Notes: a model not told the origin generated them from the letters alone. Positions 7,920-25,104 are shown, counted from the first letter of the stretch. The stretch: DNA of 41,772 bases from Candidatus Margulisiibacteriota bacterium (GCA_028706105.1 JAQWCF010000003.1:1-41772); one strand, 5' to 3'. A program made the numbers and translations.

Positions 7920-10145
7920 TTATTCTTGAGATCTCTCTAAGAGTTCCATATAAAAGGGGTTACTGCCTAATTTGTTGACTTCTTGATATGCTTGTAGTTG
8001 ATATGTTGCAAAAAGAGCATCATCTTTATTTAGAACAAGATAGTTGGAAAGAATGTTCAACAGAAGGTTATCTATTTTAAGGCTGGTTTTGTCGTTTATA
8101 TGGTTTCTTATAAAGTAACTCAACACTCTTCTTCTGTGATCCATATCATTTAAACAATCCGCAAGAACAGAATTGCCAGTCTTGAATGGCATTGTATTTT
8201 TTTTTGAACTATATCTTCTGGTTTTTAGTAAATTTTCGAAGAAGTTCATTATAAAATTTTCGGGGTTTCTCACTATGGTAATTCTTTCCTTTGATAAAAG
8301 GATGTTTGGGATATCTTTTGCTATGTGGAACTCATTATTTTCTTCGTACTCTAAGGTATTCGCTACTCCCTCACAAAACCTAAAGAATACTTTTCTTTCA
8401 GGATACGACCATATGTCATAATCTAAAATAATTGATAAGGTAGTACCATCAGGAGATTTACTAAAGGAATGTGCTTTAGTCTGAGTTTTAGCGACATCTT
8501 CAGAGGAGTATCTAGGATCTAATAGGATAGTGTCGTAAGATAATTCATCTTTGATAAAGATGGGGTTTAATAGTTCCTCTGCACTTTTATGAATAGGTTT
8601 GTCGAAAATAAGAACTACGTGAGTTTGAATATTGCCAGAAAATTCGTCTACTACAGGTTTGCAAATTACTTTGCCTTTTAGTTTTGGTTCAAGCATTTTC
8701 TGAAGTTCTTTAGGTGCATTACCTTCAAAAAGGCCGTTCAGCAGTTGTGACCTTCGACCAAGTGTCATGACATTTAGGAAAGAATTTTCGTCTTTAGTTA
8801 GTAAAATACCGTTTTCTTTTATAAATATTAAAAATTTTGTTTGCATTTCTTTAGCCAATAAAGGAAGAATTTCATTTATGTTAATAGGTGCAAAATAGCA
8901 AACTTGAAGCTCTGAAAAGGGTTCAGTTTTAAGCTTTTTTTGTTCTTCTAGGATTATTTGTTTTTTGTTTCTTTCGAAAGCTGTTGCCCTCTCTCTGATT
9001 TGGTCAGCTTCTTTTTTGTCTATCATAATCTCTATGTCTTCAATTATAGTTTTTGCACCGATAATTCTTTCCTTGAGCGTATCTGGGCTTTGGTTGAGCA
9101 TTTTCATTGGTTTGTTGTCTAGCCAGATTAGACCATTTTTAACTTCAACTTTATTGTTTTTTTCAAGAGCATTTATGATTAGTTCTATGTAGTAGTTAGC
9201 ATTATGTGCCCTAGCGATTATATTTAATCCAGCAATACCTTCGAATTCTTGTTCTCTGCGAACTTCTAACATGATTCCTTCATTATATAAGATTGTTAAT
9301 ATCTGATTTTGAGTTTCAACATTAATTTTATAAATTTCAAATAACTTCTTCATGGTTTGTGCTTGTGGTGAATGCAGCATACTCATTGACGATTTGAGGT
9401 CAGAACTGTCTCTTGCTTCATTATGGAAAATAGCGGTAGTTTTATCATTAGAGTCCGTGGCTATAGAGTGTTTGCTATTTTTTTGATTAAATTCTAAAAA
9501 CAATAATCCTAGTGGCGAATTTACATCCAGCAGTATAGAGATGTTAGAGCTTCCAGATGTTTGAATTTGCTTTTTTTCTATTACTTTTCCCTCTTTGTTC
9601 TTTGCTGCTGGTATCTCAACGTAGGAGATACCATTACCTACTTCTATATTAGGAAATATCTCTTCGTGGGCAAAATCATGAGTAACCCCGCCATTTTGTA
9701 TGGTATATACATTCAACATTCTTCCTTGTCTTGTGGGTTCATCGTTAATTAATTCTTTGATGGTAAATCTGGAACCGTAATTTTTGTCAACAAACTTGGT
9801 TTGGACCCAAAGATATCCACCTTGTGTCTCTCCAAAAATTTGATCAAAGTTAGTTTGGTATATTACAACATCAGAACACTTCAAAATAGAGGGTAAGGAG
9901 TGGAAGAGGTAATACAACATTATATCTTTTACTAATTCTATATTTTCGCTAATATTGCCATTGTTCACAGCTAAAGAAGAAGGAAGATAATGGATATTAA
10001 GATATTTGGTAAAGGCATAGAGAACTTCTTCTTCATTGCTTGCTTTTGCAAGTAACTGTAGCCCTTCTCTGTGCCACGTTAGTGTGTCTCTAAGTGTTTT
10101 TAATTCTTGAGAGCTGGTGTTTAAAGAACATATTTTGTATAGCAT
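7920..10145 (-). CDS. Large hypothetical protein (741 aa), no recognisable domain
   Basis: Uninterrupted 2.2-kb ORF. It converges on the tlpA-like gene with a 1-bp gap. I found no P-loop, HD or other catalytic motif. Confidence 0.6.
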   Translation of the reverse strand: MLYKICSLNTSSQELKTLRDTLTWHREGLQLLAKASNEEEVLYAFTKYLNIHYLPSSLAVNNGNISENIELVKDIMLYYLFHSLPSILKCSDVVIYQTNFDQIFGETQGGYLWVQTKFVDKNYGSRFTIKELINDEPTRQGRMLNVYTIQNGGVTHDFAHEEIFPNIEVGNGISYVEIPAAKNKEGKVIEKKQIQTSGSSNISILLDVNSPLGLLFLEFNQKNSKHSIATDSNDKTTAIFHNEARDSSDLKSSMSMLHSPQAQTMKKLFEIYKINVETQNQILTILYNEGIMLEVRREQEFEGIAGLNIIARAHNANYYIELIINALEKNNKVEVKNGLIWLDNKPMKMLNQSPDTLKERIIGAKTIIEDIEIMIDKKEADQIRERATAFERNKKQIILEEQKKLKTEPFSELQVCYFAPININEILPLLAKEMQTKFLIFIKENGILLTKDENSFLNVMTLGRRSQLLNGLFEGNAPKELQKMLEPKLKGKVICKPVVDEFSGNIQTHVVLIFDKPIHKSAEELLNPIFIKDELSYDTILLDPRYSSEDVAKTQTKAHSFSKSPDGTTLSIILDYDIWSYPERKVFFRFCEGVANTLEYEENNEFHIAKDIPNILLSKERITIVRNPENFIMNFFENLLKTRRYSSKKNTMPFKTGNSVLADCLNDMDHRRRVLSYFIRNHINDKTSLKIDNLLLNILSNYLVLNKDDALFATYQLQAYQEVNKLGSNPFYMELLERSQE

Positions 10146-12105: not shown

Positions 12106-12708
12106 ATGGAAAGAATTATTTTAGCTACGCATAATGAACATAAAACTAAAGAAGTTAGACATATTTTACAAGATTTAGGCATAGAAGTTCTTAGTTTAAA
12201 GGACCTTGGTTGGACAGAAGAGATAGTTGAGGATGGGCTTACTTTTTCTGATAATGCGGGAAGTAAAGTTAGTGCAGTTGCAAAAAAATATCCTCAAGAG
12301 TATATAATTGCTGACGATTCTGGCCTCGAGGTAGACATTCTTGATGGCGCTCCGGGTGTGCATTCTGCAAGATATGCAGGTAATGATAAAAGCAGTTTGG
12401 CCCTTTGTACTAAGTTAATTGAAGCTACTAAATTGTTTCCCTTTCAGGAAAGAACAGCTAGCTTTGTAACAGTACTTGCTTTTTATCAACCAACGGATAG
12501 GACAATCATGGCCTTTGAAGGTACTGTAAATGGATTAATTCTTGAGGAGATGCGCGGTAGTAACGGCTTTGGCTATGATCCAGTGTTTTATCTGCCAGAA
12601 TTAATGAAAACTATGGCTGAACTTAGTTCAGAGGAGAAGGATAAATTAAGTCATAGACATAATGCTTTGGAGAAATTTAAGGCGTATGTTAAACGACACA
12701 ATGTCTAA
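12106..12708 (+). CDS. rdgB: dITP/XTP pyrophosphatase (RdgB/HAM1 family)
   Basis: ILATHNEHKTKE, ADDSGLEVD, FGYDPVF and SHR motifs; 200 aa. Confidence 0.9.
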   Translation: MERIILATHNEHKTKEVRHILQDLGIEVLSLKDLGWTEEIVEDGLTFSDNAGSKVSAVAKKYPQEYIIADDSGLEVDILDGAPGVHSARYAGNDKSSLALCTKLIEATKLFPFQERTASFVTVLAFYQPTDRTIMAFEGTVNGLILEEMRGSNGFGYDPVFYLPELMKTMAELSSEEKDKLSHRHNALEKFKAYVKRHNV

Positions 12709-13780
12709 AATTCTTTTTCTTTCTAATGGACATGGAGAAGATTTGATTTCCTTTAGAATTTTAACTGAGTTACAAAAAATATTATCTGACGATAGCTTTT
12801 ATGTTCTTCCAATGGTAGGTGAAGGTGGTGCTTTTTCAGCTCTTACGGGTATCAATATAATTGGTCCGCAGAAAGAGACTAGTTCTGGTGGTTTTGTCAA
12901 AAATATCTTGTCTTTAGTTAAGGATTTATCATCAGGCATTTTGTCGCTTCATTTTAAACAAATAAAAAATGCTTCTAAAATTAAATATGATTTGGTGGTT
13001 TGTGTAGGAGATTTTTTGCCGTTTATTCTTTCATATTTATTTTTAAAATATAAAAAAATTGTTTTTATATCTACAGCTAAATCAGATTTTTTTGAGCCTC
13101 ATTTTTGGATAGAACGATATTTTTTCAAAAAATCTAAAACGAAAGTGCTGGCTAGAGATAGTGTTACAGCAGAAAATCTAGTAGCTCGGGGAGTCAATGC
13201 AGAATATTTTGGTAACGTGATGATGGATGGTTTTAAGATTAAGCGATTGCCAAAGACAGACCAAAATCAATTTATTGTAGGTGTTCTGCCTGGGAGCAGG
13301 AGAGAGGCATATATAAATTATAGTTTAATAAAAGAGGTTATTTTAAATCTTCCAGATGAATGGGTATACCAGGTAGCGGTTCCTAACAATTTGGATAAAA
13401 ATAAGTTTCAAATAGAGGATAAAAAGGATTTTATTAAGATGGTTAAATTTGAAAACATGCTTAAGGAAGCTGATATCGTTTTAGGTTTAGCAGGTACGGC
13501 GAATGAGCAGGTAATAGGATTTGGAATTCCGCTTTTTACCTTTAGAGGTTATGGACCACAGACTACTAGAAAAAGATTTTTGGATCAAAAAAAATTGTTA
13601 GGTAATTTGCCTGAGTTTATTGACTCGCAAGACAGTGAAGTGATTGCTAAGCTAATTAAGCAGAAAGTTAAGGATAGAGATTTTTTTGAGCGAGTAAGAG
13701 TTGATGGTATTAAGGTTATGGGTAGTAGTGGGGCTGCCGAAAGAATATCAAAAGAACTTGCAGTTTTATTAAAAAGCTAG
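12701..13780 (+). CDS. Lipid-A-disaccharide synthase-related protein (LpxB-like glycosyltransferase family)
   Basis: MSKILFLSNGHGEDL N-terminus and GTANEQ motif resemble the LpxB-related family. The ATG at 12701 overlaps the rdgB stop (ATGTCTAA). The track ORF start at 12662 lies inside rdgB. Confidence 0.6.
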   Translation: MSKILFLSNGHGEDLISFRILTELQKILSDDSFYVLPMVGEGGAFSALTGINIIGPQKETSSGGFVKNILSLVKDLSSGILSLHFKQIKNASKIKYDLVVCVGDFLPFILSYLFLKYKKIVFISTAKSDFFEPHFWIERYFFKKSKTKVLARDSVTAENLVARGVNAEYFGNVMMDGFKIKRLPKTDQNQFIVGVLPGSRREAYINYSLIKEVILNLPDEWVYQVAVPNNLDKNKFQIEDKKDFIKMVKFENMLKEADIVLGLAGTANEQVIGFGIPLFTFRGYGPQTTRKRFLDQKKLLGNLPEFIDSQDSEVIAKLIKQKVKDRDFFERVRVDGIKVMGSSGAAERISKELAVLLKS

Positions 13781-15260: not shown

Positions 15261-15929
15261 TTGATTAATTTAAAAATAGGAAAATTAGTTTTCGAAAATG
15301 TTGATTTATCAAAAGATCAATCTCATAAATTGAGAGGATATATTGGAGAAAAGTATAAAGAATATGACCTTGTACATAATCACGATACAGTAACAGGTAA
15401 AGAAATATATCGTTACCCATTATTTCAATTTAAAGTGATAGATAAGAAGCCCCATGTTATATCAATTGGTGAAAAACCATCAATAATTTTTAAAAAAATG
15501 TTTATGGATATTAAAAGTATTGAAATCCAAGGTAAAAATATTCCAATATATGAAAAACAATTGTGTTCTGATTTTTATTCTTTTGGTGAGTCCTTAAAAA
15601 TGAATACTTATAAGTTTGTTTCTCCATGGATAGGTTTAAATCAAGATAATTATAAAAAGTATAATTTGGCATTAGATTACAATGATAAGAGAACGATCCT
15701 TAATAATTGTTTAATAGGAAACATTATTTCTGTTTGTAAGGGATTAGGGTATAGGGTTGAACAGCCAATAGTGTGTGAGAGCAGTTTAAGCTTAAATAAA
15801 GTGATACTAAAGGGGTTTGAGGTATTAGGTTTCTTAGGAACATTTAAAATCAATTTTGAATTACCTGATTATATTGGGATAGGGAAATCTGTTTCTCGAG
15901 GTTATGGGACAATAAAAAAATATGTATAA
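15261..15929 (+). CDS. cas6: CRISPR-associated endoribonuclease Cas6
   Basis: TTG start 8 nt after AAGGAG. C-terminal glycine-rich loop GIGKSVSRGYGTI. First gene of the cas operon. Confidence 0.8.
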   Translation: MINLKIGKLVFENVDLSKDQSHKLRGYIGEKYKEYDLVHNHDTVTGKEIYRYPLFQFKVIDKKPHVISIGEKPSIIFKKMFMDIKSIEIQGKNIPIYEKQLCSDFYSFGESLKMNTYKFVSPWIGLNQDNYKKYNLALDYNDKRTILNNCLIGNIISVCKGLGYRVEQPIVCESSLSLNKVILKGFEVLGFLGTFKINFELPDYIGIGKSVSRGYGTIKKYV

Positions 15930-15949: not shown

Positions 15950-17719
15950 ATGTTAAAAAAACTTTATAAATTGGGTAAATACATTCCAGAGGAGTATTTT
16001 GAAGATAATCCTTTAGGTTTAAATATGTCGCACACTGGTGGGATGGTTTGCGTGATTCAGTTTAGTTTTAATAATGATGTTTTCTTATATGATAAAATTA
16101 CCTATGAGGATTATGATGCTGCAAGAAATGAATATAGGTATTTGTTTGAAGAACTAGATAGTCCTAATAGTACACCTGCGTTCCCAACTTATCGTGTTAA
16201 TAAAGCAGGGGATAAAAGTATTAAAGAGAAAACAATTTCTGCATTATCAAAAATAAAAAATTCTTTGAATTGTTATGAGCGCTTAAAACAAATAACAAAT
16301 TGTATTGATGCCAACATCGAGGAATTAGTTTTGGATATATCGGAGAAGGTGGACTATAAAGAGTCTTTTTTGATTACATTAATGATAAATGGTCAGTATT
16401 TAGCAGAAATAGATGAGGTTAAGAATAAAGTGGTTAATCGGACTTCCGAGATTTATGCTAAATACTATTCTAATGATAAAAAATATGTGGGAGAACAAGC
16501 TGTGTGTTCTTTATGTATGCTGAAAAAAGATGAAGTATGGGGGTATGTGAGCCCTTACAATTTTTATGCTGTTAAGACTGAACAATCTGTTGTTTCAGGT
16601 GGATTTAATGTAAAAAATGCTTGGAAAAATTTCCCAGTATGTGAAGATTGTGCTAAAAAAATATTAAAATATAAAACCGCGATTAAGCAAAGACTTTCTT
16701 TTAACTTTTATGGATTCAATTACTTTTTAATACCAGAAGTAGTCTTAGATAAAGGTAATAATAAAGAATTTGTAGATGTTTTATTTAATGACCAATATGG
16801 GTTATTGAACTTAAGGAAATTAAAAGAGACCAATAAGTTAGAAGATGATTTGGTTGATATATTAAAAGAAACAAACAATTCAGCTAACTTTACTTTATTG
16901 TTTTATGAAGAGAATAATGCTGAATTTAAGATTGTTTTATCGATAGATGATGTGTTCCCTTCTAGATTTAACAGTATTTTTAGTGCTAGAGAATATTCAG
17001 AGAATAATTTATTGTTTAAAGATTTAACGTTTAAAGATGGGATAAAAGATTTGAAAATGAGCTTTGGAGTTATTAAACATTTTTTCCCGTCATCAAAAAT
17101 AGAAGGAGATTTTTCTTCTTACTTTCTTGAAATTGTTAGGTCTATTTTTATAGTGAAAAAGGTTGATTATGACTTTGTAATTAATAGAATAATAACAAAA
17201 TTAAGAAACAAATTTGTTAATGAAGAGTATCTATTCGTAGATTTATTAAATTCTATGCTTTTAATAAGATTTATGAACCATTTAAAGTTATGGAATAAAA
17301 AAGAATCAATAAAAGAAAGGGAGGTTGTCATGGACAGTAATAAGTACAATATTTTTTTAGATGAGCACAAAGAATTTTTTGATAATAATACAAAGAAGGC
17401 AATATTTTTAGAAGGAGTTCTTTGTCAATTTTTATTTAACATACAGTATTCAGAGAGGAATTCAACACCTTTCAAATCAAAGCTTAATGGATTGAAATTA
17501 GACGAGAAGTATATTAAAAAGCTTTTGCCTGAAATAATTAATAAACTAGAGGAGTATGATAAAAATTACTATAAAGATTTGGAAACTATTATTTCTAAAT
17601 ATATGTTGGAGTCAACATTTGATATGACTAATGATGAAATAAGTTTCTATTTTGTTATGGGAATGAATTTGGCAAAGGAATTTAGAAATGAAAAAGAAAA
17701 AAATGAGGAGGTAAACTAA
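15950..17719 (+). CDS. cas8b: Type I-B Cascade large subunit Cas8b (TM1802-like)
   Basis: 589 aa, internal CSLC...CEDC zinc-finger-like pairs. Position between cas6 and cas7. Confidence 0.75.
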   Translation: MLKKLYKLGKYIPEEYFEDNPLGLNMSHTGGMVCVIQFSFNNDVFLYDKITYEDYDAARNEYRYLFEELDSPNSTPAFPTYRVNKAGDKSIKEKTISALSKIKNSLNCYERLKQITNCIDANIEELVLDISEKVDYKESFLITLMINGQYLAEIDEVKNKVVNRTSEIYAKYYSNDKKYVGEQAVCSLCMLKKDEVWGYVSPYNFYAVKTEQSVVSGGFNVKNAWKNFPVCEDCAKKILKYKTAIKQRLSFNFYGFNYFLIPEVVLDKGNNKEFVDVLFNDQYGLLNLRKLKETNKLEDDLVDILKETNNSANFTLLFYEENNAEFKIVLSIDDVFPSRFNSIFSAREYSENNLLFKDLTFKDGIKDLKMSFGVIKHFFPSSKIEGDFSSYFLEIVRSIFIVKKVDYDFVINRIITKLRNKFVNEEYLFVDLLNSMLLIRFMNHLKLWNKKESIKEREVVMDSNKYNIFLDEHKEFFDNNTKKAIFLEGVLCQFLFNIQYSERNSTPFKSKLNGLKLDEKYIKKLLPEIINKLEEYDKNYYKDLETIISKYMLESTFDMTNDEISFYFVMGMNLAKEFRNEKEKNEEVN

Positions 17720-17720
17720 T

Positions 17721-18638
17721 ATGACAGAATTAAAGAATAGATCAGAGTTATTGTTTTTATATGATATTAAAGATTGTAATCCAAATGGTGACCCGATGGA
17801 TGAAAATAAGCCCAGAATTGATGAGGAGACTAGGATTAATATTGTTACTGATGTTAGATTAAAAAGAACTATTAGGGATTATATGTTCAATTATAAAGGA
17901 TACAATGGGAATAACGGAAAAGATATTTTTTGTCGACAGACAGAATCAAAAAAAGAAAAAGGCGGACTAAATGATGGCAAAAGTCGTGCTGGAGATTTTG
18001 GCAAAGATAAAGTAGAAAAAGACAAGCGTATATTAACAGAATGTATTGATGTAAGACTTTTTGGTGGAGTTATCCCTTTAGATAAAGATTCAATAACATA
18101 TACTGGTCCTGTACAATTTAAGATGGGACGGTCTTTGCATCAAGTTGACTTAGTTCATATAAAGGGAACAGGAGCTTTTGCTTCTCAAGAAGGAAAACAT
18201 CAACAGGCATTTAGAGAGGAATATGTTTTGCCTTATTCTTTAATTGCTTTTTATGGTGTTATTAACGAAAATGCAGCAAAACATACGGGGCTTAGCGAAG
18301 AGGACACAGAAGAGTTATTGGAAGCCATGTGGAAAGGAACCAAGAATTTGCTTTCTCGTTCTAAAATGGGTCATAGTCCTAGACTGTTAGTAAGAGTTGT
18401 TTATAAAAAAGATAATTTTTTTATTGGGGAGTTAGATAAGTTGATTCGTTTAGATGCTCAATTATCTGATGAAAAATTACGAGATATTTCAGAAGTCAAA
18501 ATTGATTTGCAAAATTTTTCTGATAAAGTCGTAAAAAATAAAGACAAAATCGAGAAAGTTATTGTTATAAAGGATGATAGATGCGTATTAAGTAACATTG
18601 ATACTATAAAATCCTTAATAGAATACAAGAATTTTTAA
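17721..18638 (+). CDS. cas7: Type I-B Cascade backbone subunit Cas7 (Csh2/Cst2 family)
   Basis: N-terminal LFLYDIKDCNPNGDPMDENKPRID and VRLKRTIRDY motifs characteristic of I-B/I-C Cas7. Confidence 0.9.
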   Translation: MTELKNRSELLFLYDIKDCNPNGDPMDENKPRIDEETRINIVTDVRLKRTIRDYMFNYKGYNGNNGKDIFCRQTESKKEKGGLNDGKSRAGDFGKDKVEKDKRILTECIDVRLFGGVIPLDKDSITYTGPVQFKMGRSLHQVDLVHIKGTGAFASQEGKHQQAFREEYVLPYSLIAFYGVINENAAKHTGLSEEDTEELLEAMWKGTKNLLSRSKMGHSPRLLVRVVYKKDNFFIGELDKLIRLDAQLSDEKLRDISEVKIDLQNFSDKVVKNKDKIEKVIVIKDDRCVLSNIDTIKSLIEYKNF

Positions 18639-18649
18639 AAGGAGTTAAT

Positions 18650-19354
18650 GTGAATAATATTTTAATTTTTGATATTTGGGCTGATTATGCTCATATTAAA
18701 AAGATATTTACAACAATGTCACCTTTATCTTTTCCTTTTCCAGGTAGGACAGCGATTCAAGGTATTATTGGTGCAATTATTGGGGTGGATAAGAGTTTGA
18801 ATCCAGAAAAGTTTATTGATGAGGATGTTTTGATTGGGTTAAGTTTATTATCTTCGATAAAAAAGGTTGTTATTCCTCATAATAATCTTAAGGTAACGTC
18901 CAAAATACATTTTAGTCACTATGAAGATCATAAACCTCAAAATGTAGAGTTTATTAAAGATCCTAAGTATAGAATCTATTTTGCTTGTAAGGATAAAAAC
19001 GTGTATGAGGAGTTAAAAGTAAAACTAGAGAGTCATACATCAGTTTATACAATATCGCTTGGAATATCACAGACATTAGCTAATTATGAATATATTGGGG
19101 AGTATGGTTGTTTACAAAAAACATCGACAAACGAATTTTGTTTAATTAATAGTGTTTGTGATAAATCATCTGTTTTAGACATTGAATTTGGTGAATTAAA
19201 GATATTTACAGTGATTTTGCCAAATAGGATGAAGAATGATCGCGAAGTTATTGAGTATAAGGAGTTTATTTATGAATCAGACGGAAATCCTATAAAGATA
19301 AAAACAAATAAATATTATGAAGTAAGTAATGGTGAAAATATTATATTCTTATAA
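18650..19354 (+). CDS. cas5: Type I-B Cas5
   Basis: GTG start after AAGGAG. N-terminal FDIWADYAHIKK...PFPGRTAIQGIIGAIIG Cas5 signature. Confidence 0.85.
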   Translation: MNNILIFDIWADYAHIKKIFTTMSPLSFPFPGRTAIQGIIGAIIGVDKSLNPEKFIDEDVLIGLSLLSSIKKVVIPHNNLKVTSKIHFSHYEDHKPQNVEFIKDPKYRIYFACKDKNVYEELKVKLESHTSVYTISLGISQTLANYEYIGEYGCLQKTSTNEFCLINSVCDKSSVLDIEFGELKIFTVILPNRMKNDREVIEYKEFIYESDGNPIKIKTNKYYEVSNGENIIFL

Positions 19355-21647
19355 GCTTAGATCTCATCCAGATAAATTATTAAAAGACCATTTGGTGAAT
19401 GTTCATGATATTGGGCTTAAAAAATATAAGCAATCTAGTTTAAATATTATTTCTGAAGATGTATTAAAAGCTATTTTATTGTTTCATGACTTTGGGAAAT
19501 CTACTATTTATTTTCAAGATAAGATACAGGGGAAATCGATCCATAATGAAGTTCTGATGAGGCACAGTGAGGTGTCTGCATTGTTTTGCTTATATTATTT
19601 GTTGCAGAATGGTGCTGATGAACATGACGCTCTTTTAGCGTATTTAGCAATAAAAAAACATCACGGTAGTTTTGAGAATTTAACTGAGATGCTTAGTGTT
19701 TCTGAAGACATAGACGATCGTTTAGAAAGAATTGTTAGTAATATTAATTATGATGAAATTAAGGAAATTTATAATCCATATTTTAATAATTCAATTATTG
19801 ATAAAAAATTATTTGTTGAATGGAATCAGGAATTTAGGTTAAGTAAGTTAAGAAGAAATCTTGAGAAGAAATTAATTGGATATAATCTAGTGTTTTATAA
19901 TAAATTAAACCTGTATTTTTCTTTACTGGTATATGCAGATAAACAAGATTGTATTTTTAATAGAGAATTGTTAGGAGACAACGAAACTTACCTAAATTAT
20001 CTTTGTGTCGATGAATTCAAAAAGAGAGTTTTTAAAGATTCATCAGATATAGACAAGATAAGGGATGATGCTTATAAAGAGGTTGAAAATAATTTAGATG
20101 TTACCACTAGAATTATGTCGATTAATCTTCCTACAGGGATTGGCAAAACGCTTACGGCATTTAATGCTGCGTTGAAATTGCTAAAAATGGATTGTAGTTT
20201 AAAGAAAATTATTTATTGTTTGCCTTTTACCTCTGTAATAGATCAAAATTCCAGTGTTTTTGAAAAAGTATTACAAACAGACGATCCAAGCATTATTACA
20301 ACTCAACATCATTTGACAGAAATTAATACAAAAAAATATGAAAAAAGTAATAGTTACGAGGTAACAGATAATCAAGCAGAGTTTTTGATAGAAACATGGC
20401 ATAGCAACATTATAATAACAACTTTTTACCAATTACTTCATACAATGCTTTCAGGTCTTAACCGGCAACTTAAAAAGTACAATAATCTTGCAAATTCCAT
20501 TATTATTTTGGATGAAGTTCAATCAATTCCAAGAAAGTATTGGGATTTAGTAAGGCGGGTATTTACAGAGACAGCGGATCTATTAAACATGAAGATTATT
20601 CTCGTGACCGCAACAATGCCTTTAATTTTTTCTGAAGATAATAAAGAAATAAAAGAATTAGCCATATCAAAACATAGATTTTTTAAGTCATTGAACCGTA
20701 TAGTCCTTGATGTTTCGAGCATAACAGAAAAAATTAAAATAGAAGATTTTTGTAAAGAAATTATTTCTGAAATTGAGCACTCAGACAAGAGTTACCTGTT
20801 TATTTTAAATACAGTGAATAGTTCTTTGGTTGTGTATAATTTTTTGAAGGATTTTGATTTAAATCCTTTGTACTTATCGTCAAACGTTATCCCAGATGAG
20901 AGGCTAAATAGAATAAATCAAATAAGGCATAATACTAAAAGGCAAATTGTTGTATCAACACAAGTTGTAGAGGCTGGTGTAGATATTGATTTTGATGTTG
21001 TTTATCGAGATATTGCTCCTCTTGATTCTATTTTTCAGGCATGCGGAAGATGTAATAGAAATGGTAAGTTAGAAAAGGGTTATGTGCGTATTGTTGAATT
21101 AGTATCCGATACTGGAAATAGTTATGCAAAATATGTTTATGATTTAGTTTCATTAAATAAAACAAAAGATATTTTAGTAAACAAAAAGCAGATAGAAGAG
21201 AAAGATTTTTTTGAGCTTTCACATGAGTATTATAAAGAGATGAAAAGCATAGCAGAGACCTCAACAAGCTTAGAAATATATAATAGTATGTCTCTATTAA
21301 AGTATACAGATGCTTTTTGTGGTAAGGATGGATTTGAGTTAATAAAGCAAGAATATAAGACGGTACCTGTATTTATTCAGGTTAATTCTGTGTCACAGGA
21401 GTTATTAACTGAATATTATTTATTGTTAAAATGCTTGTCAGCTAATAACAATAGCTTTGAGAACAAGGTGAAAATTAAAAATCATTTTATCAAAATGCAG
21501 AAGTATATGCTAAGCATACCTCTTAGGTATTTGCCTGACTATAAAGATGAAAATTTTATCATTATTAATTCAAGTCAAATCCCTAATCAGTACAACTTGG
21601 AAACTGGTTTTGTTCGTTCACCAAGGATGGAAGATTATTTTATTTAA
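19329..21647 (+). CDS. cas3: Cas3 HD nuclease-helicase fusion
   Basis: N-terminal HD domain (LLFHDFGKST, KKHHG). Helicase motifs PTGIGKT, ILDEVQ, VTATMP and VSTQVVEAGVDIDF. Confidence 0.92.
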   Translation: MVKILYSYKLRSHPDKLLKDHLVNVHDIGLKKYKQSSLNIISEDVLKAILLFHDFGKSTIYFQDKIQGKSIHNEVLMRHSEVSALFCLYYLLQNGADEHDALLAYLAIKKHHGSFENLTEMLSVSEDIDDRLERIVSNINYDEIKEIYNPYFNNSIIDKKLFVEWNQEFRLSKLRRNLEKKLIGYNLVFYNKLNLYFSLLVYADKQDCIFNRELLGDNETYLNYLCVDEFKKRVFKDSSDIDKIRDDAYKEVENNLDVTTRIMSINLPTGIGKTLTAFNAALKLLKMDCSLKKIIYCLPFTSVIDQNSSVFEKVLQTDDPSIITTQHHLTEINTKKYEKSNSYEVTDNQAEFLIETWHSNIIITTFYQLLHTMLSGLNRQLKKYNNLANSIIILDEVQSIPRKYWDLVRRVFTETADLLNMKIILVTATMPLIFSEDNKEIKELAISKHRFFKSLNRIVLDVSSITEKIKIEDFCKEIISEIEHSDKSYLFILNTVNSSLVVYNFLKDFDLNPLYLSSNVIPDERLNRINQIRHNTKRQIVVSTQVVEAGVDIDFDVVYRDIAPLDSIFQACGRCNRNGKLEKGYVRIVELVSDTGNSYAKYVYDLVSLNKTKDILVNKKQIEEKDFFELSHEYYKEMKSIAETSTSLEIYNSMSLLKYTDAFCGKDGFELIKQEYKTVPVFIQVNSVSQELLTEYYLLLKCLSANNNSFENKVKIKNHFIKMQKYMLSIPLRYLPDYKDENFIIINSSQIPNQYNLETGFVRSPRMEDYFI

Positions 21648-21674
21648 TAAAACTAAGGTAAGAGGAGTAAATAA

Positions 21675-22223
21675 ATGAATAAAGGTAAAATTTATATTTT
21701 TAAGATTTCTTTAAAAAACAGTGACCCGTTAATTTGGAGGCGAGTGAAAGTGCCCAGTTATTTTACGTTAGGTGATTTTCATGAGGTTATTCAAATTGTA
21801 ATGCCTTGGGCTGATTGTCATATGCATGTCTTTAAGGTTAAAGGAAAAACATATACTAATTTAGAATATGAGTCAATGGAGAATGATCTTGATGAGGATT
21901 TATTTGAGCTGGTTGATATCTTGAAAGAAGGTGATACCTTTGACTATATTTATGATTTTGGCGATGGATGGAGACACAATGTTAAGGTTGAAGAATTAGT
22001 ATCCCCAGAGAAGAAGGAAATTTACCCAATATGTGTAGAAGGAGAATTTGCAGCACCACAGGAAAACAGTGGAGGACTACATAGCTATTACGAAAAACTT
22101 GAGATTTTAAAAAACAAAAATCATCCTGAATATGAAGAAATTTCAAGTTGGTGTGAAGCAGGACTTGATCCTGAATTTTTTGACTTGCAAGACGCTAATG
22201 ACGTCTTAGATAGTTACAAATAA
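21675..22223 (+). CDS. MM3350-like / plasmid pRiA4b ORF-3-like (PF07929-type) protein embedded in the cas operon
   Basis: Motifs PLIWRRVKVPSYFTLGDFHEVIQIVMPWADCHMHVF, FDYIYDFGDGWRHNVKVEE and CVEGEFAAPQENSGGLHSYYE match my recollection of this family. AGAGGAG RBS. The stop abuts the cas1 ATG. Confidence 0.8.
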   Translation: MNKGKIYIFKISLKNSDPLIWRRVKVPSYFTLGDFHEVIQIVMPWADCHMHVFKVKGKTYTNLEYESMENDLDEDLFELVDILKEGDTFDYIYDFGDGWRHNVKVEELVSPEKKEIYPICVEGEFAAPQENSGGLHSYYEKLEILKNKNHPEYEEISSWCEAGLDPEFFDLQDANDVLDSYK

Positions 22224-23195
22224 ATGGAGCTTACAATTACTACATATGGTTCATATTTACATGTGAAAGATGGTTGTTTTGAAGTCAAAGTAGATGAGAC
22301 AAAAGCTCAATTTTCAGTAAAAAAAATATCTTCTATTCACATAGCTACAAAAGCTTCTTTGTCTACAGACGCGATAAAACTTGCGTTAGACAATAATATA
22401 GATATTGTTTTTCTTGATGACTATAAAGGAGCATATGCTAGAGTTTGGTTTCCGAAAATAGGCTCAACAGTCAAAATCAGAAGAAGACAATTGGAAATAA
22501 GTGATAAGAAAGAAGGTTTCGATTTATCAAAAGAGTGGATGTTAATAAAAATTGATAATCAAGTGTCTTTTTTGAGGGAACTAGGTTATAAGAGACCTGC
22601 AAAGGAGTTATATTTCAAAGACAGTATTGCGTATATTTTGGAGTTACGTAAAAGCATAGATTTGTTGATTTTTGATGAGAACATTATACCTTCAATAATG
22701 GGATATGAGGGAAACATCAGTAAGAAGTATTTTGAGGTTCTAAGTATGATTATGCCTAAAGGATTCGAGTTCAATGGTAGAAGCAGACAGCCTGCATTGG
22801 ATAAATTTAATTGTATGCTTAATTATAGTTATAGTGTTATTTATTCTATGGTGGAGAAAGCATGTATCATTGCTGGACTTGATCCTTATATAGGATTTGT
22901 TCATGCAGATAATTATAACAAAAAGTCATTAGTATTTGATATTATTGAGTTGTTTAGGGTATATGCAGACATTCCTGTGACTCATTTATGTACTTGCAAA
23001 AGAATGAATGTGGATTGTTTTGAGCAATTAGATGGAGGAGGCGTGATTTTAAATAAGCAAGGGAAAAAAGAATTGCTGGTGCAGTTTTATAATCATCTTG
23101 ATGAAAAAATTAGACATCGGAATAGACAGGTCTCTAGGAAAACAGCTATTCAGCTGGAATGTCACCATGTCGCTCAGACAATATTAAATGGATGA
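22224..23195 (+). CDS. cas1: CRISPR integrase Cas1
   Basis: 323 aa. Cas1 N-terminal beta domain (YGSYLHVKDGCFEV) and C-terminal helical catalytic domain (GFVHADNYNKKSLVFDIIELFR). Confidence 0.92.
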   Translation: MELTITTYGSYLHVKDGCFEVKVDETKAQFSVKKISSIHIATKASLSTDAIKLALDNNIDIVFLDDYKGAYARVWFPKIGSTVKIRRRQLEISDKKEGFDLSKEWMLIKIDNQVSFLRELGYKRPAKELYFKDSIAYILELRKSIDLLIFDENIIPSIMGYEGNISKKYFEVLSMIMPKGFEFNGRSRQPALDKFNCMLNYSYSVIYSMVEKACIIAGLDPYIGFVHADNYNKKSLVFDIIELFRVYADIPVTHLCTCKRMNVDCFEQLDGGGVILNKQGKKELLVQFYNHLDEKIRHRNRQVSRKTAIQLECHHVAQTILNG

Positions 23196-23496
23196 GCATA
23201 CAATTATGTTGACTTGGTTTATTTATGATGTTACCTCGAATAAAGTTAGAAATAAGATAATTAAGGATGCCAAGGGTTACGGTTTTTATCGAGTGCAGAA
23301 ATCTGTTTTTTTAGGCGAAGCAGACAAATCAGACGTTGACGCCTTAAAAGAGTATTGTTCGGAAATAATTGATCATTCAACTGACTCTGTTTATGTTTTT
23401 CCAGTTTGTGAAGAGTGTTTTTCAAAAGCAAGATTTGTAGGTCAGGCTTTTAATAAAGAATTAGTTTGTGATGAATTAAAAAGTTTTATCATATGA
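23188..23496 (+). CDS. cas2: Cas2
   Basis: MLTWFIYDVTSNKVRNKI...RVQKSVFLGE ferredoxin-like Cas2 pattern. The true start may be the ATG at 23206. Overlaps the cas1 stop. Confidence 0.88.
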   Translation: MDEHTIMLTWFIYDVTSNKVRNKIIKDAKGYGFYRVQKSVFLGEADKSDVDALKEYCSEIIDHSTDSVYVFPVCEECFSKARFVGQAFNKELVCDELKSFII

Positions 23497-24080
23497 ATTC
23501 AGTTACCATAACACCCTCAGATGTTTTAGAATATAATTTTTGTCCAAGGTTTATATATTATATGTATTGTCTAGGTATTTCTCAACACGAAGGCGAAAGG
23601 TATAAGGTTGTCAAAGGAAGAGAAGTCCATGATTACAAAAGCACAGTTAATAAAGGATATTTACGGAAAAAGTTAGAGGTAATAGATAAAAAGATAAATG
23701 TATACATTAAATCTGAAAAACTAAGGCTAAGAGGTGAGGTGGATGAGATTTTATTTTTAAAAGATGAAACAGCTGTGATTCTTGACTATAAGTATGCAGA
23801 GTACAAAGAAAAACTTTTTACTACTTATAAAACACAAATTGTTCAATATGCTTTACTTGTTCAGGAAAAATATGATGTATTTGTTAATAAAGGTTATATA
23901 TGTTTTACAAGAAGCGATAATTATTTGCATGAGGTTGACATTTTGCTTCAAGATAAACAAAAAGCGCTGGATGTAATTGATGAGATATTTGATATAATAG
24001 TAAATGAAACGTATCCAAAAGCTACGACTAGTAAAGCGAAGTGTCTGGATTGCTGTTATAGAAATATTTGTGTAAAATAA
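23493..24080 (+). CDS. cas4: Cas4 RecB-like exonuclease with Fe-S Cys cluster
   Basis: N-terminal Cys (YNFCPRF) plus C-terminal CLDCCYRNIC. D...DYKY (D-ExK-like) nuclease core. ATGA overlap with cas2. Confidence 0.88.
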   Translation: MNSVTITPSDVLEYNFCPRFIYYMYCLGISQHEGERYKVVKGREVHDYKSTVNKGYLRKKLEVIDKKINVYIKSEKLRLRGEVDEILFLKDETAVILDYKYAEYKEKLFTTYKTQIVQYALLVQEKYDVFVNKGYICFTRSDNYLHEVDILLQDKQKALDVIDEIFDIIVNETYPKATTSKAKCLDCCYRNICVK

Positions 24081-24249: not shown

Positions 24250-25104
24250 ATTTCAGACCACATATCCAATAAAATAAGGATTGAAACAAGACAAAGCAAG
24301 TAAAATTGATACAACGTTATTCAATTTCAGACCACATATCCAATAAAATAAGGATTGAAACATGTTAGTAGAGCGGTTTTTAAATAAACATCATGCAATT
24401 TCAGACCACATATCCAATAAAATAAGGATTGAAACTTCGTTAGGTTCACTGTTTGAGTTTGCCCGCTAAAATATTTCAGACCACATATCCAATAAAATAA
24501 GGATTGAAACCGATTTTATAAACTGTTCCCTTTCACCTGTTGTTGTATTTCAGACCACATATCCAATAAAATAAGGATTGAAACTATGTTCCGATTACCC
24601 AGTTATTCGTCTCCATGTCTATTTCAGACCACATATCCAATAAAATAAGGATTGAAACAGTAAATTTTTAGCGAATTCAACACCCTGCAGAAATAATTTC
24701 AGACCACATATCCAATAAAATAAGGATTGAAACAAATTAATAAATGGGGAGTAACTGTTTACAATGGAATTTCAGACCACATATCCAATAAAATAAGGAT
24801 TGAAACATACTCTATCTCTTCATAAACAATATAAACTCATTCTATTTCAGACCACATATCCAATAAAATAAGGATTGAAACTGTTCGGTAAGTTTTATGG
24901 CTGGCACAGTGTGGCAGATTTCAGACCACATATCCAATAAAATAAGGATTGAAACAATTGCGTATGATGAGATGTTGTAGGATAGCTGATAAATTTCAGA
25001 CCACATATCCAATAAAATAAGGATTGAAACGAGCATGGGACAAAGAAAGTAAACAGATGTTTCCAGATTTCAGACCACATATCCAATAAAATAAGGATTG
25101 AAAC
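24250..25104 (+). CRISPR. CRISPR array: 12 identical 38-nt repeats (ATTTCAGACCACATATCCAATAAAATAAGGATTGAAAC) and 11 unique spacers of 35-37 nt
   Basis: TTTCAG cores start at 24251, 24325, 24399, 24474, 24548, 24622, 24697, 24770, 24845, 24919, 24994 and 25068. The repeat ends in ATTGAAAC (Cas6 5'-handle type). This gives + orientation, with the AT-rich leader at 24081-24249 next to cas4. Confidence 0.97.

What the first reader, a model, noticed from the sequence alone, without database searches (positions are those of the whole stretch)
21675..22223. MM3350 / pRiA4b-ORF3-like gene of unknown function in the cas4 slot, butted against cas1
- Seen: a 182-aa ORF with its own AGAGGAG RBS starts 27 nt after the cas3 stop.
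- Seen: its TAA (22221-22223) is immediately followed by the cas1 ATG (22224). cas1/cas2 then overlap by 8 nt and cas2/cas4 by ATGA, so the four genes look like one translationally coupled adaptation cassette.
- Seen: its motifs are PLIWRRVKVP..TLGDFHEVIQ..W..CHMHVF, YIYDFGDGWRHNV and CVEGEFAAPQENSGG.
- Established: canonical I-B loci read cas6-cas8b-cas7-cas5-cas3-cas4-cas1-cas2. Here this gene occupies the cas4 position and cas4 sits after cas2.
- Established: these motifs fit my recollection of Pfam PF07929 (MM3350-like fold). The family has no assigned function and is otherwise known from plasmids and as an IS passenger gene. It is not a recognised Cas family to my knowledge.
- Inference: it may be an undescribed accessory factor of spacer acquisition, or of the Cas3-to-Cas1 hand-off (primed adaptation).
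Basis: partly seen in the sequence, partly recalled or inferred. Interest (0 to 1): 0.8.

Follow-up and report, generated by a model that had tools for sequence, protein, structure and literature searches.

The report
Mobile-element gene lodged inside CRISPR operon
A small gene of unknown function that normally travels on plasmids and transposons sits between cas3 and cas1 of a type I-B CRISPR locus, but related loci carry nothing or quite different small genes at that spot, so it looks like swappable cargo rather than a new CRISPR factor.

Summary
ORF 21675-22223 is an intact, full-length PF07929 (PRiA4_ORF3 / MM3350-fold) protein. It has its own Shine-Dalgarno site 27 nt after the cas3 stop, and its TAA abuts the cas1 ATG.

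- **No cas4 displacement.** cas1-cas2-cas4 is the native order of this I-B lineage.
- **Not conserved.** None of seven related I-B loci has a PF07929 gene after cas3 or before cas1. The closest (Cas1 86% identical) has cas3, 19 nt, then cas1. The others hold a 143-aa orphan, MNT and/or HEPN toxin-antitoxin genes, an ATPase, or three small ORFs.
- **A mobile family.** It has about 14,800 clusters at 50% identity. It occurs in 3.9% of plasmids, often next to serine recombinases in transposons such as ISKpn19. The window protein has no relative above about 51% identity.
- **Weak cas linkage.** Of 240 sampled PF07929 loci, 3 lie within 10 kb of a cas3. There is no supported Cas-linked subclade and no Cas fusion.

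Best reading: lineage-specific cargo in a variable cas3|cas1 slot, co-expressed with the adaptation genes. A real Cas3/Cas1-modulating role is not excluded (about 0.2).

The parts
15261..15929 (+). cas6b
   Evidence: Pfam Cas6b_N and Cas6b_C, E = 4e-23 and 1.6e-36
15950..17719 (+). cas8b (TM1802/Csh1 type)
   Evidence: PF09484 E = 2.8e-124; TIGR02556 and TIGR02591
17721..18638 (+). cas7 (Csh2)
   Evidence: PF05107 E = 7.7e-65; TIGR02590
18650..19354 (+). cas5b
   Evidence: TIGR02592 E = 2.6e-33
19329..21647 (+). cas3 (HD nuclease plus helicase)
   Evidence: TIGR01587 and TIGR01596; Cas3-like_C_2 and DEAD
21661..21667 (+). Shine-Dalgarno AGAGGAG of the PF07929 gene, possibly the ancestral cas1 SD
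   Evidence: Read directly from the sequence. L088 has AGAGG at the equivalent place before cas1.
21675..22223 (+). PF07929 (PRiA4_ORF3 / MM3350-fold) gene, 182 aa, pI 4.6: the finding
22221..22226 (+). TAAATG stop/start junction. cas1 has no SD of its own here, so coupled translation is inferred.
   Evidence: Sequence. The indel relative to L088 spans 21648-22212.
22224..23195 (+). cas1
   Evidence: PF01867 E = 6.9e-75; TIGR00287
23188..23496 (+). cas2
   Evidence: PF09827; TIGR01573
23493..24080 (+). cas4, in the native position after cas2 for this lineage
   Evidence: TIGR00372 E = 2.9e-37. The same order is seen in L088, L090, L092 and L178.
24250..25104 (+). CRISPR array: 12 identical 38-nt repeats (ATTTCAGACCACATATCCAATAAAATAAGGATTGAAAC) and 11 spacers

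Best explanation
The gene is a stand-alone member of the large, mobilome-associated PF07929 (MM3350-fold) family. It sits as lineage-specific cargo in the junction between the interference module (ending in cas3) and the adaptation module (cas1-cas2-cas4) of a chromosomal type I-B locus.

**The slot is variable (shown).** In relatives it is empty or holds toxin-antitoxin genes and other small non-cas ORFs.

**How the gene works in place.**
- Shown: it lies inside the cas gene string with a strong SD, and no convincing terminator lies in the cas3-X gap.
- Inferred: it is transcribed from the cas operon mRNA and uses what was probably cas1's SD. cas1, now lacking an SD, is translated by termination-reinitiation at TAAATG. 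The cargo is thereby entrenched, because a sloppy deletion would silence cas1.
- Inferred, weak: the protein is an acidic, beta-grasp-containing binding module. It probably acts on a partner protein, as it presumably does beside serine recombinases in transposons. It is unlikely to be a nuclease or a DNA binder.

It is not a conserved, dedicated component of spacer acquisition.
For: **Related I-B loci lack it.**
- L088/L089 (Cas1 86% identical): cas3, 19 nt, then cas1.
- L090/L091 (Cas1 72%): an unrelated 143-aa orphan between cas3 and cas1.
- L092: a HEPN gene abutting cas1.
- L175: MNT after cas3. L176: MNT then HEPN.
- L177: an ATPase-like ORF with a Walker-type GRRRAGKT motif, identified by eye only.
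- L178: an AlbA_2 fragment plus two small ORFs, then cas1-cas2-cas4.
- The PF07929 profile finds nothing in any of these loci.

**The family is mobile.**
- 2,833 of 72,556 plasmids carry it, mostly conjugative ones, against 4 of 50,697 phage genomes.
- It is part of ISKpn19 (PRiA4, serine recombinase, transposase) and lies next to a Tn3 transposase in Nostoc.
- A resolvase sits directly upstream in six or more sampled loci. Published transposon-passenger status: PMC3942029.
- Neighbouring ORFs hit defence and mobilome models: PDC-S01, WYL, methyltransferases, Drt2, AbiEii.
- The nearest homologue, P0002, lies directly after an MNT-HEPN pair. P0007 lies after PIN-MazE pairs.

**No Cas specialisation.**
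- The window + L009 sister grouping has 14.5% bootstrap support.
- There are no Cas fusions among 149 representatives.
- There are no PADLOC or NCBIfam hits.

**Intactness and expression signals:**
Against: - The gene is intact and keeps all 19 family-invariant residues I checked. It is tightly coupled to cas1, which is also what a functional operon member would look like.
- Three other PF07929 genes lie near a cas3:
  - L009, 26 nt upstream of a I-C cas3 on the same strand.
  - L096, WYL-PRiA4-YhcG-cas3 (I-C).
  - L102, 5 kb from a I-G-like cas3.
- Three cas3 genes in about 2.8 Mb of flank exceeds my rough background of about 0.1 cas3 per Mb. That background comes from my own knowledge and was not computed here.
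- The polarity of the indel (gain here or loss in L088) is not resolved.
- The related loci come from short metagenomic contigs. Several end inside the slot.
Confidence: 0.6

Rival explanations
1. Genuine accessory of type I systems. The PF07929 protein binds Cas3 or the Cas1-Cas2-Cas4 complex. It modulates the hand-off of Cas3 degradation products to the adaptation machinery (priming), or it gates Cas3 activity.
For: - It is embedded in the operon and stop/start-joined to cas1.
- Independent cas3-proximal occurrences exist in I-C (L009, L096) and I-G-like (L102) loci.
- L009 is the nominal nearest neighbour of the window protein in the tree.
- The protein is intact and conserved.
- An acidic pI of 4.6 suits binding to basic partners such as Cas1, pI 8.75.
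Against: - It is absent from all 7 related I-B loci, and the slot is filled by unrelated genes.
- Only 3 of 240 family loci lie near cas.
- In the I-C cases it sits at the locus edge among degraded YhcG genes and a WYL partner. That WYL-PRiA4 pair also occurs without cas, in L105.
- The sister grouping is unsupported at 14.5%.
- It is not reported in the CRISPR-linked gene survey text I could search.
Confidence: 0.2
2. Selfish or stabilising module. Like the toxin-antitoxin pairs that occupy the same slot in relatives, the gene either makes the cas operon hard to lose or acts as a brake or regulator (anti-defence-like) on the host's own system.
For: - The same slot holds MNT-HEPN and other toxin-antitoxin-like genes in relatives.
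- Toxin-like genes inside cas operons, with repeated displacement of one by another, are described in PMC3506569.
- The family is abundant on conjugative plasmids and transposons.
- The closest homologues sit beside toxin-antitoxin pairs.
Against: - It is a single gene with no partner ORF here.
- It has no similarity to known toxins, antitoxins or anti-CRISPRs.
- No toxicity data exist for any PF07929 member, to my knowledge.
Confidence: 0.12
3. Decaying remnant of an old insertion with no function.
For: - It is unique to this lineage.
- Two positions of the usual PPEDCGG motif are changed, to PQENSGG.
Against: - The match is full length: 172 of 173 profile positions.
- All invariant residues are kept, the fold is confidently predicted, and the SD is strong.
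- The protein is identical in three contigs from different samples, one of them carrying 8 substitutions elsewhere or silent.
- Ser in place of Cys also occurs in P0003, P0007 and P0008.
Confidence: 0.03

Closest known systems
MM3350 of Methanosarcina mazei (PDB 2i1s) / Pfam PF07929 PRiA4_ORF3
   Same: - Same family and fold: E = 1.9e-33 by sequence, TM 0.87 by structure, and the signature motifs WRR, HxxIQ, YDFGDxWxH and PxExxGG are present.
- Stand-alone, about 180 aa, acidic.
   Different: - It lies inside a cas operon.
- PPEDCGG is changed to PQENSGG.
- It has no relative above about 51% identity among 1.84 billion cluster representatives.
PF07929 passenger genes of transposons (ISKpn19/ISKra4-like, ISAzba1 group, Tn3-family; PMC3942029)
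   Same: - Same protein family.
- A small gene carried as non-transposase cargo.
   Different: - No transposase, serine recombinase or convincing terminal repeats are found around the window gene.
- Its immediate neighbours are cas3 and cas1.
Toxin-antitoxin and other non-cas genes embedded in cas operons (for example MNT-HEPN; PMC3506569, PMC3632139)
   Same: - The position is interchangeable with MNT-HEPN in related loci.
- Presence is variable and lineage-specific.
   Different: - It is not a recognisable toxin or antitoxin.
- It is a single gene.
Canonical type I-B (Tneap/TM1802-type) CRISPR-Cas locus
   Same: All core genes and an array are present.
   Different: - The gene order is cas3-[cargo]-cas1-cas2-cas4 rather than cas3-cas4-cas1-cas2.
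- The cas1-cas2-cas4 order is shared by the whole sub-lineage.

Membership tests
Pfam PF07929 (PRiA4_ORF3 / MM3350-like) | Full-length profile match above the gathering score | tested here: met
   190.2 bits against a 26.6-bit cut-off, E = 3.1e-56, residues 5-172 on profile positions 1-172 of 173
Pfam PF07929 (PRiA4_ORF3 / MM3350-like) | Conserved signature residues: W21, R22, H36, Q40, W45, H49, F53, Y91, YDFGD, W99, H101, P118, P128, G133, G134 | tested here: met
   All are invariant in alignment A1, including the window protein. D131N and C132S are deviations at non-invariant positions.
Pfam PF07929 (PRiA4_ORF3 / MM3350-like) | MM3350 fold | tested here: met
   AF2 pLDDT 91.6 and pTM 0.88. 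Foldseek to 2i1s: E = 8e-18, TM 0.87.
Cas / CRISPR-accessory protein | Retained in orthologous or closely related cas loci | tested here: not met
   0 of 7 related I-B loci carry it, and the slot is empty or holds unrelated genes.
Cas / CRISPR-accessory protein | Family or subfamily preferentially encoded next to cas genes or arrays | tested here: inconclusive
   - 3 of 240 sampled loci (about 2.8 Mb of flank) lie within 10 kb of a cas3, and none are in viral contigs.
- That is above a rough random expectation, but the sample is small and no matched control family was run.
- The Cas-linked members do not form a supported clade.
Cas / CRISPR-accessory protein | Match to a curated Cas or defence model, or fusion to a Cas domain | tested here: not met
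   - No NCBIfam or PADLOC hit.
- No Cas-domain fusion in 149 representatives.
- Fusions are only to DUF1186, DUF6398, DUF7309, DUF6930 and SEC-C.
Cas / CRISPR-accessory protein | Effect on adaptation or interference; physical interaction with Cas proteins | not testable with these tools
   This needs genetics, biochemistry or multimer modelling.
Transposon / IS passenger (in its present location) | Adjacent transposase or recombinase, and terminal inverted repeats or a target-site duplication | tested here: not met
   - The neighbours are cas3 and cas1, and the annotated flanking ORFs are housekeeping genes.
- Only weak AT-rich repeats flank the gene.
- A 9-nt direct repeat AAATAAATG at both ATGs is a common start context in this window.
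Toxin-antitoxin module | Two-gene toxin/antitoxin architecture, or homology to a known toxin or antitoxin | tested here: not met
   It is a single ORF with no hit to toxin-antitoxin models.

The most novel reading that the evidence does not exclude
PF07929/MM3350-fold proteins may be acidic partner-binding modulators of DNA-processing enzymes: serine recombinases in transposons, and Cas3/Cas1 in type I systems. Under this reading, the window shows one co-opted into the adaptation operon, where it tunes Cas1 integrase or couples Cas3 to spacer capture. The recurrent cas3-adjacent copies in I-C (L009, L096) and I-G-like (L102) loci would then be further examples of the same co-option.
Probability: 0.15. 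Interest if true: 0.7.

Novelty: new member of a known kind. Interest (0 to 1): 0.3.

Why it matters
- **If it is cargo (likely).** The value is descriptive. In this I-B sub-lineage the cas3|cas1 junction is a defined hot spot where small selfish or accessory genes are swapped. These include MNT-HEPN, orphans, an ATPase and PF07929. Each abuts cas1 and so shares its expression. That offers a compact natural system for studying how non-cas genes become entrenched in immune operons.
- **If the minority reading holds.** A family of roughly 15,000 clusters with a solved structure but no known function, present on about 4% of sequenced plasmids including clinical Enterobacteriaceae plasmids, would gain its first functional handle.

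Tried and rejected
- **Cas-specific subclade.** An NJ tree of 176 PF07929 domains puts the window next to the I-C-linked L009 protein. Bootstrap support is only 14.5%, and L096 and L102 lie elsewhere. One bootstrap run timed out. Rejected.
- **Extra CRISPR arrays near family members.** My k-mer detector flagged L014, L035, L060, L068 and L072. TRF shows these are ordinary tandem repeats.
- **Extra 'Cas3c' PADLOC hits among neighbours.** Jackhmmer and a Cas3 profile confirm only L096. L048 is a generic SF2 helicase beside an IS200-like gene.
- **The 143-aa ORF of L090 as a divergent PF07929.** No similarity and no Pfam hit.
- **Anti-CRISPR or viral analogue.** PHROGs gives nothing significant. 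Foldseek against BFVD finds only two unknown giant-virus proteins.
- **Functional clue from fold or fusions.** Beyond 2i1s there is only a weak SNAPc-subunit hit (7zwc_b, E = 0.012, TM 0.45) and ubiquitin-like beta-grasp hits. Fusion partners are all DUFs or SEC-C.
- **Promoter/terminator scan.** Promoter-like sites are no more frequent than in shuffles, and no terminator-like site lies in the cas3-X gap.
- **Foreign composition.** GC is 0.35, against 0.24-0.35 across the cas genes. Not diagnostic.
- **Literature.** No open paper links PF07929/MM3350 to CRISPR. No supplement text was available.
- **Host organism.** Not determined.

Full report
**1. Observation**

The window holds a complete type I-B locus on the + strand:
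- cas6b 15261-15929
- cas8b (TM1802 type) 15950-17719
- cas7 17721-18638
- cas5 18650-19354
- cas3 19329-21647
- the ORF in question 21675-22223
- cas1 22224-23195
- cas2 23188-23496
- cas4 23493-24080
- an array of twelve identical 38-nt repeats at 24250-25104

- cas3 ends with TAA at 21647.
- AGAGGAG lies at 21661-21667.
- The ATG is at 21675.
- The TAA at 22221-22223 is followed at once by the cas1 ATG.

The overlaps are also as stated: cas1/cas2 by 8 nt and cas2/cas4 by ATGA.

The locus is chromosomal. It lies between purD, a Ham1-family gene and an epimerase on one side, and a homoserine O-acetyltransferase-like hydrolase, metW, rplU, obg and, further on, ligA on the other.

**2. Identity of the protein**

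- It matches Pfam PF07929 (PRiA4_ORF3) over the whole profile: E = 3.1e-56, 190 bits.
- It matches the MM3350 structure 2i1s at E = 1.9e-33.
- An AF2 model built on 15 homologues is confident (pLDDT 91.6). It superposes on 2i1s with TM 0.87.
- All 19 residues invariant in the alignment that I checked are kept. The usual PPEDCGG reads PQENSGG, and Ser for Cys also occurs in three homologues.
- NCBIfam and PADLOC have no model for it. PHROGs gives nothing significant.
- The protein is acidic (pI 4.6), like its relatives (pI 4.4-6.4).

**3. Is it a conserved part of this CRISPR system? No.**

I collected related loci through Cas1 and Cas3 homologues. The same locus, with an identical 182-aa protein, occurs in two other samples: L001 at 100% DNA identity, and L002 with 8 substitutions in 8.9 kb.

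The next relatives differ at exactly this spot:

| Locus | Identity to window | Content of the cas3\|cas1 junction |
|---|---|---|
| L088/L089 | Cas1 86% | cas3 stop, 19 nt carrying AGAGG, then cas1. The indel against the window is 21648-22212. |
| L090/L091 | Cas1 72%, Cas3 63% | An unrelated 143-aa orphan with its own AAGGAG, ending 2 nt before cas1 |
| L092 | Cas1 71% | A HEPN gene (E = 2.7e-17) ending 4 nt before a TTG-initiated cas1 |
| L175 | Cas3 59% | cas3, then MNT (contig ends) |
| L176 | Cas3 52% | cas3, MNT, HEPN (contig ends) |
| L177 | Cas3 48% | cas3, then an ATPase-like ORF (Walker-type GRRRAGKT motif, by eye; no family search) |
| L178 | Cas3 47% | cas3, an AlbA_2 fragment, 64-aa and 129-aa ORFs, then cas1-cas2-cas4 |

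The PF07929 profile finds nothing in any of these loci.

Two conclusions follow:
- cas1-cas2-cas4 is the native order of the lineage, so nothing displaced cas4.
- The cas3|cas1 junction is a variable slot. Its content turns over among toxin-antitoxin genes, orphans and, in the window only, PF07929.

Toxin-like genes inside cas operons, with repeated displacement, have been described before (PMC3506569).

**4. What the family looks like elsewhere**

*Size and isolation.* An exhaustive phmmer search finds 14,840 cluster representatives (50% identity) at E <= 1e-3. None is closer than about 51% to the window protein.

*Distribution.*
- The family is on 2,833 of 72,556 plasmids, of which 1,917 are conjugative.
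- It is in only 4 of 50,697 phage genomes. It gave 204 pattern hits in 2.9 million viral contigs.

*Transposon contexts.*
- In Enterobacteriaceae one allele sits in ISKpn19 as PRiA4, serine recombinase, then ISKra4-like transposase.
- In Nostoc it lies beside a Tn3 transposase on seven plasmids.
- This agrees with PMC3942029.

*Neighbours in 160 sampled chromosomal and metagenomic loci.*
- No neighbour family recurs in more than 7 loci.
- The recurrent ones are a serine resolvase directly upstream (7 loci), AAA_14/DUF4143 (6 loci) and AbiEi (4 loci).
- A WYL-PRiA4 pair occurs in L096 and L105. A related SWIM/DUF6880 protein lies a few genes downstream in L102 and L105.
- Of 145 flanking ORFs, a noticeable share hit defence models: PDC-S01, WYL, methyltransferases, Drt2, AbiEii.

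*Closest homologues.* They sit after an MNT-HEPN pair (P0002) or after PIN-MazE pairs (P0007), with no cas genes nearby.

*Fusions.* Partners are only DUFs and SEC-C, never a Cas domain.

**5. Is there any cas signal in the family? A weak one.**

Of 240 sampled loci (80 genomes, 80 metagenomes, 80 viral; about 2.8 Mb of flank), three lie near a cas3:
- L009 (Syntrophus MAG, I-C): PRiA4 26 nt upstream of cas3, same strand, preceded by a truncated YhcG.
- L096 (I-C): WYL-PRiA4-split YhcG-split cas3-cas5.
- L102: 5 kb upstream of a I-G-like cas3.

Against a background of roughly 0.1 cas3 per Mb, three is more than random. That background is my own estimate and was not computed here. The excess is what a defence-island resident would show.

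The I-C cases lie at the locus edge among degraded genes. The WYL-PRiA4 pair also occurs without cas. The Cas-linked proteins do not form a supported clade (14.5% bootstrap).

**6. Mechanism**

*Shown.* The gene is intact. It lies in the cas gene string and has a strong SD. No terminator-like site lies in the cas3-X gap. cas1 has no SD-like sequence in the 20 nt before its ATG, whereas L088 has AGAGG there.

*Inferred.*
- The gene took over the ancestral cas1 SD.
- Cas1 is now made by termination-reinitiation at TAAATG.
- This entrenches the cargo.

A 9-nt direct repeat, AAATAAATG, ends at both ATGs. Deleting one copy plus the intervening 540 nt would restore SD-cas1. However, this 9-mer is a common start context in the window (8 copies against 2.6 expected), so I give it little weight.

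*What the protein does* is not known for any member. Three features fit a partner-binding module better than a DNA binder or an enzyme:
- its acidity;
- the beta-grasp-like N-terminal lobe (weak Foldseek hits to ubiquitin-like folds);
- helical-repeat and SEC-C fusion partners, and pairing with serine recombinases.

This is inference only.

**7. Verdict**

The 'cas4 slot' reading and the 'new adaptation factor' reading are not supported.

The most likely explanation (0.6) is lineage-specific mobilome cargo in a variable inter-module slot. A real Cas3/Cas1-modulating role remains possible (about 0.2) and is cheaply testable.

Novelty: a new example of a known phenomenon (non-cas genes embedded in cas operons) and a new, isolated member of a known family.

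Interest: 0.3.

Noticed in passing
L088, L090/L091, L092, L175-L178 (the junction equivalent to window 21648-22223): In this I-B sub-lineage the cas3|cas1 junction is a hot spot. It is empty, or holds a 143-aa orphan, MNT and/or HEPN, an ATPase-like ORF, or an AlbA_2 fragment plus two small ORFs. Where the junction with cas1 is seen, the occupant ends 0-4 nt before cas1 (window, L090, L092) or about 20 nt before it (L178).
   Followed up: yes
L175:2652-4474: A second variable slot lies between cas6b and cas8b in a related locus. It holds a 162-aa ORF, a RhuM-family gene, a 45-aa ORF and a PemK toxin.
   Followed up: no
L090:2387-2818 (also L091:2296-2727): A 143-aa acidic (pI 5.0) orphan sits between cas3 and cas1. 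It has no Pfam hit and no similarity to the PF07929 protein. Function unknown.
   Followed up: partly
window 21669-21677 and 22218-22226: The same 9-mer, AAATAAATG, ends at the ATG of the PF07929 gene and at the ATG of cas1. Deletion between the copies would rebuild SD-cas1. It may be microhomology from the insertion, or just a common start context (8 copies in the window against 2.6 expected).
   Followed up: partly
window 21675-23195: The PF07929 ORF and cas1 are in the same reading frame, separated by a single TAA. Read-through would give a fusion protein. No PF07929-Cas1 fusion was seen among 149 family representatives.
   Followed up: partly
L096:157-1707, L105:6982-12376, L102:29-4046: A WYL-PRiA4 gene pair recurs (L096, L105), and a SWIM/DUF6880 protein lies nearby in L102 and L105. 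L105 has no cas genes on its contig. In L096 and L102 these genes lie next to I-C and I-G-like cas3 genes.
   Followed up: partly
L009:9078-9842 and L096:2033-2729: Degraded YhcG/DUF1016 PD-(D/E)xK nuclease genes (truncated or split) accompany the PF07929 gene upstream of both I-C cas3 genes. The L009 I-C operon also carries a Fic gene and a 23S-IVS-like gene between cas7 and cas4.
   Followed up: no
L173 (NZ_KY499796.1 17057-19739) and about 2,000 Enterobacteriaceae plasmids: One PF07929 allele, identical across the plasmids sampled in the spread listing, sits in ISKpn19 (PRiA4, serine recombinase, ISKra4-like transposase). It is spread over Klebsiella, E. coli, Salmonella and Enterobacter plasmids of many sizes and mobility classes.
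   Followed up: partly
AF2 model of window 21675-22223: Apart from 2i1s, the best structural matches are a subunit of human SNAPc (7zwc_b, E = 0.012, TM 0.45) and two unknown giant-virus proteins (E about 1e-5 to 1e-4, TM about 0.47). This may be a distant fold relationship. It was not examined.
   Followed up: no
P0136-P0145: Many family members carry two or three tandem PF07929 domains, and 98 of 149 top representatives are longer than 230 aa. Fusion partners are DUF1186, DUF6398, DUF7309 + DUF6930 and SEC-C.
   Followed up: partly
window 7920-10145 (-) and 12662-13780 (+): Two large ORFs (741 aa and 372 aa) beside the CRISPR locus have no Pfam match at E <= 1e-4.
   Followed up: no
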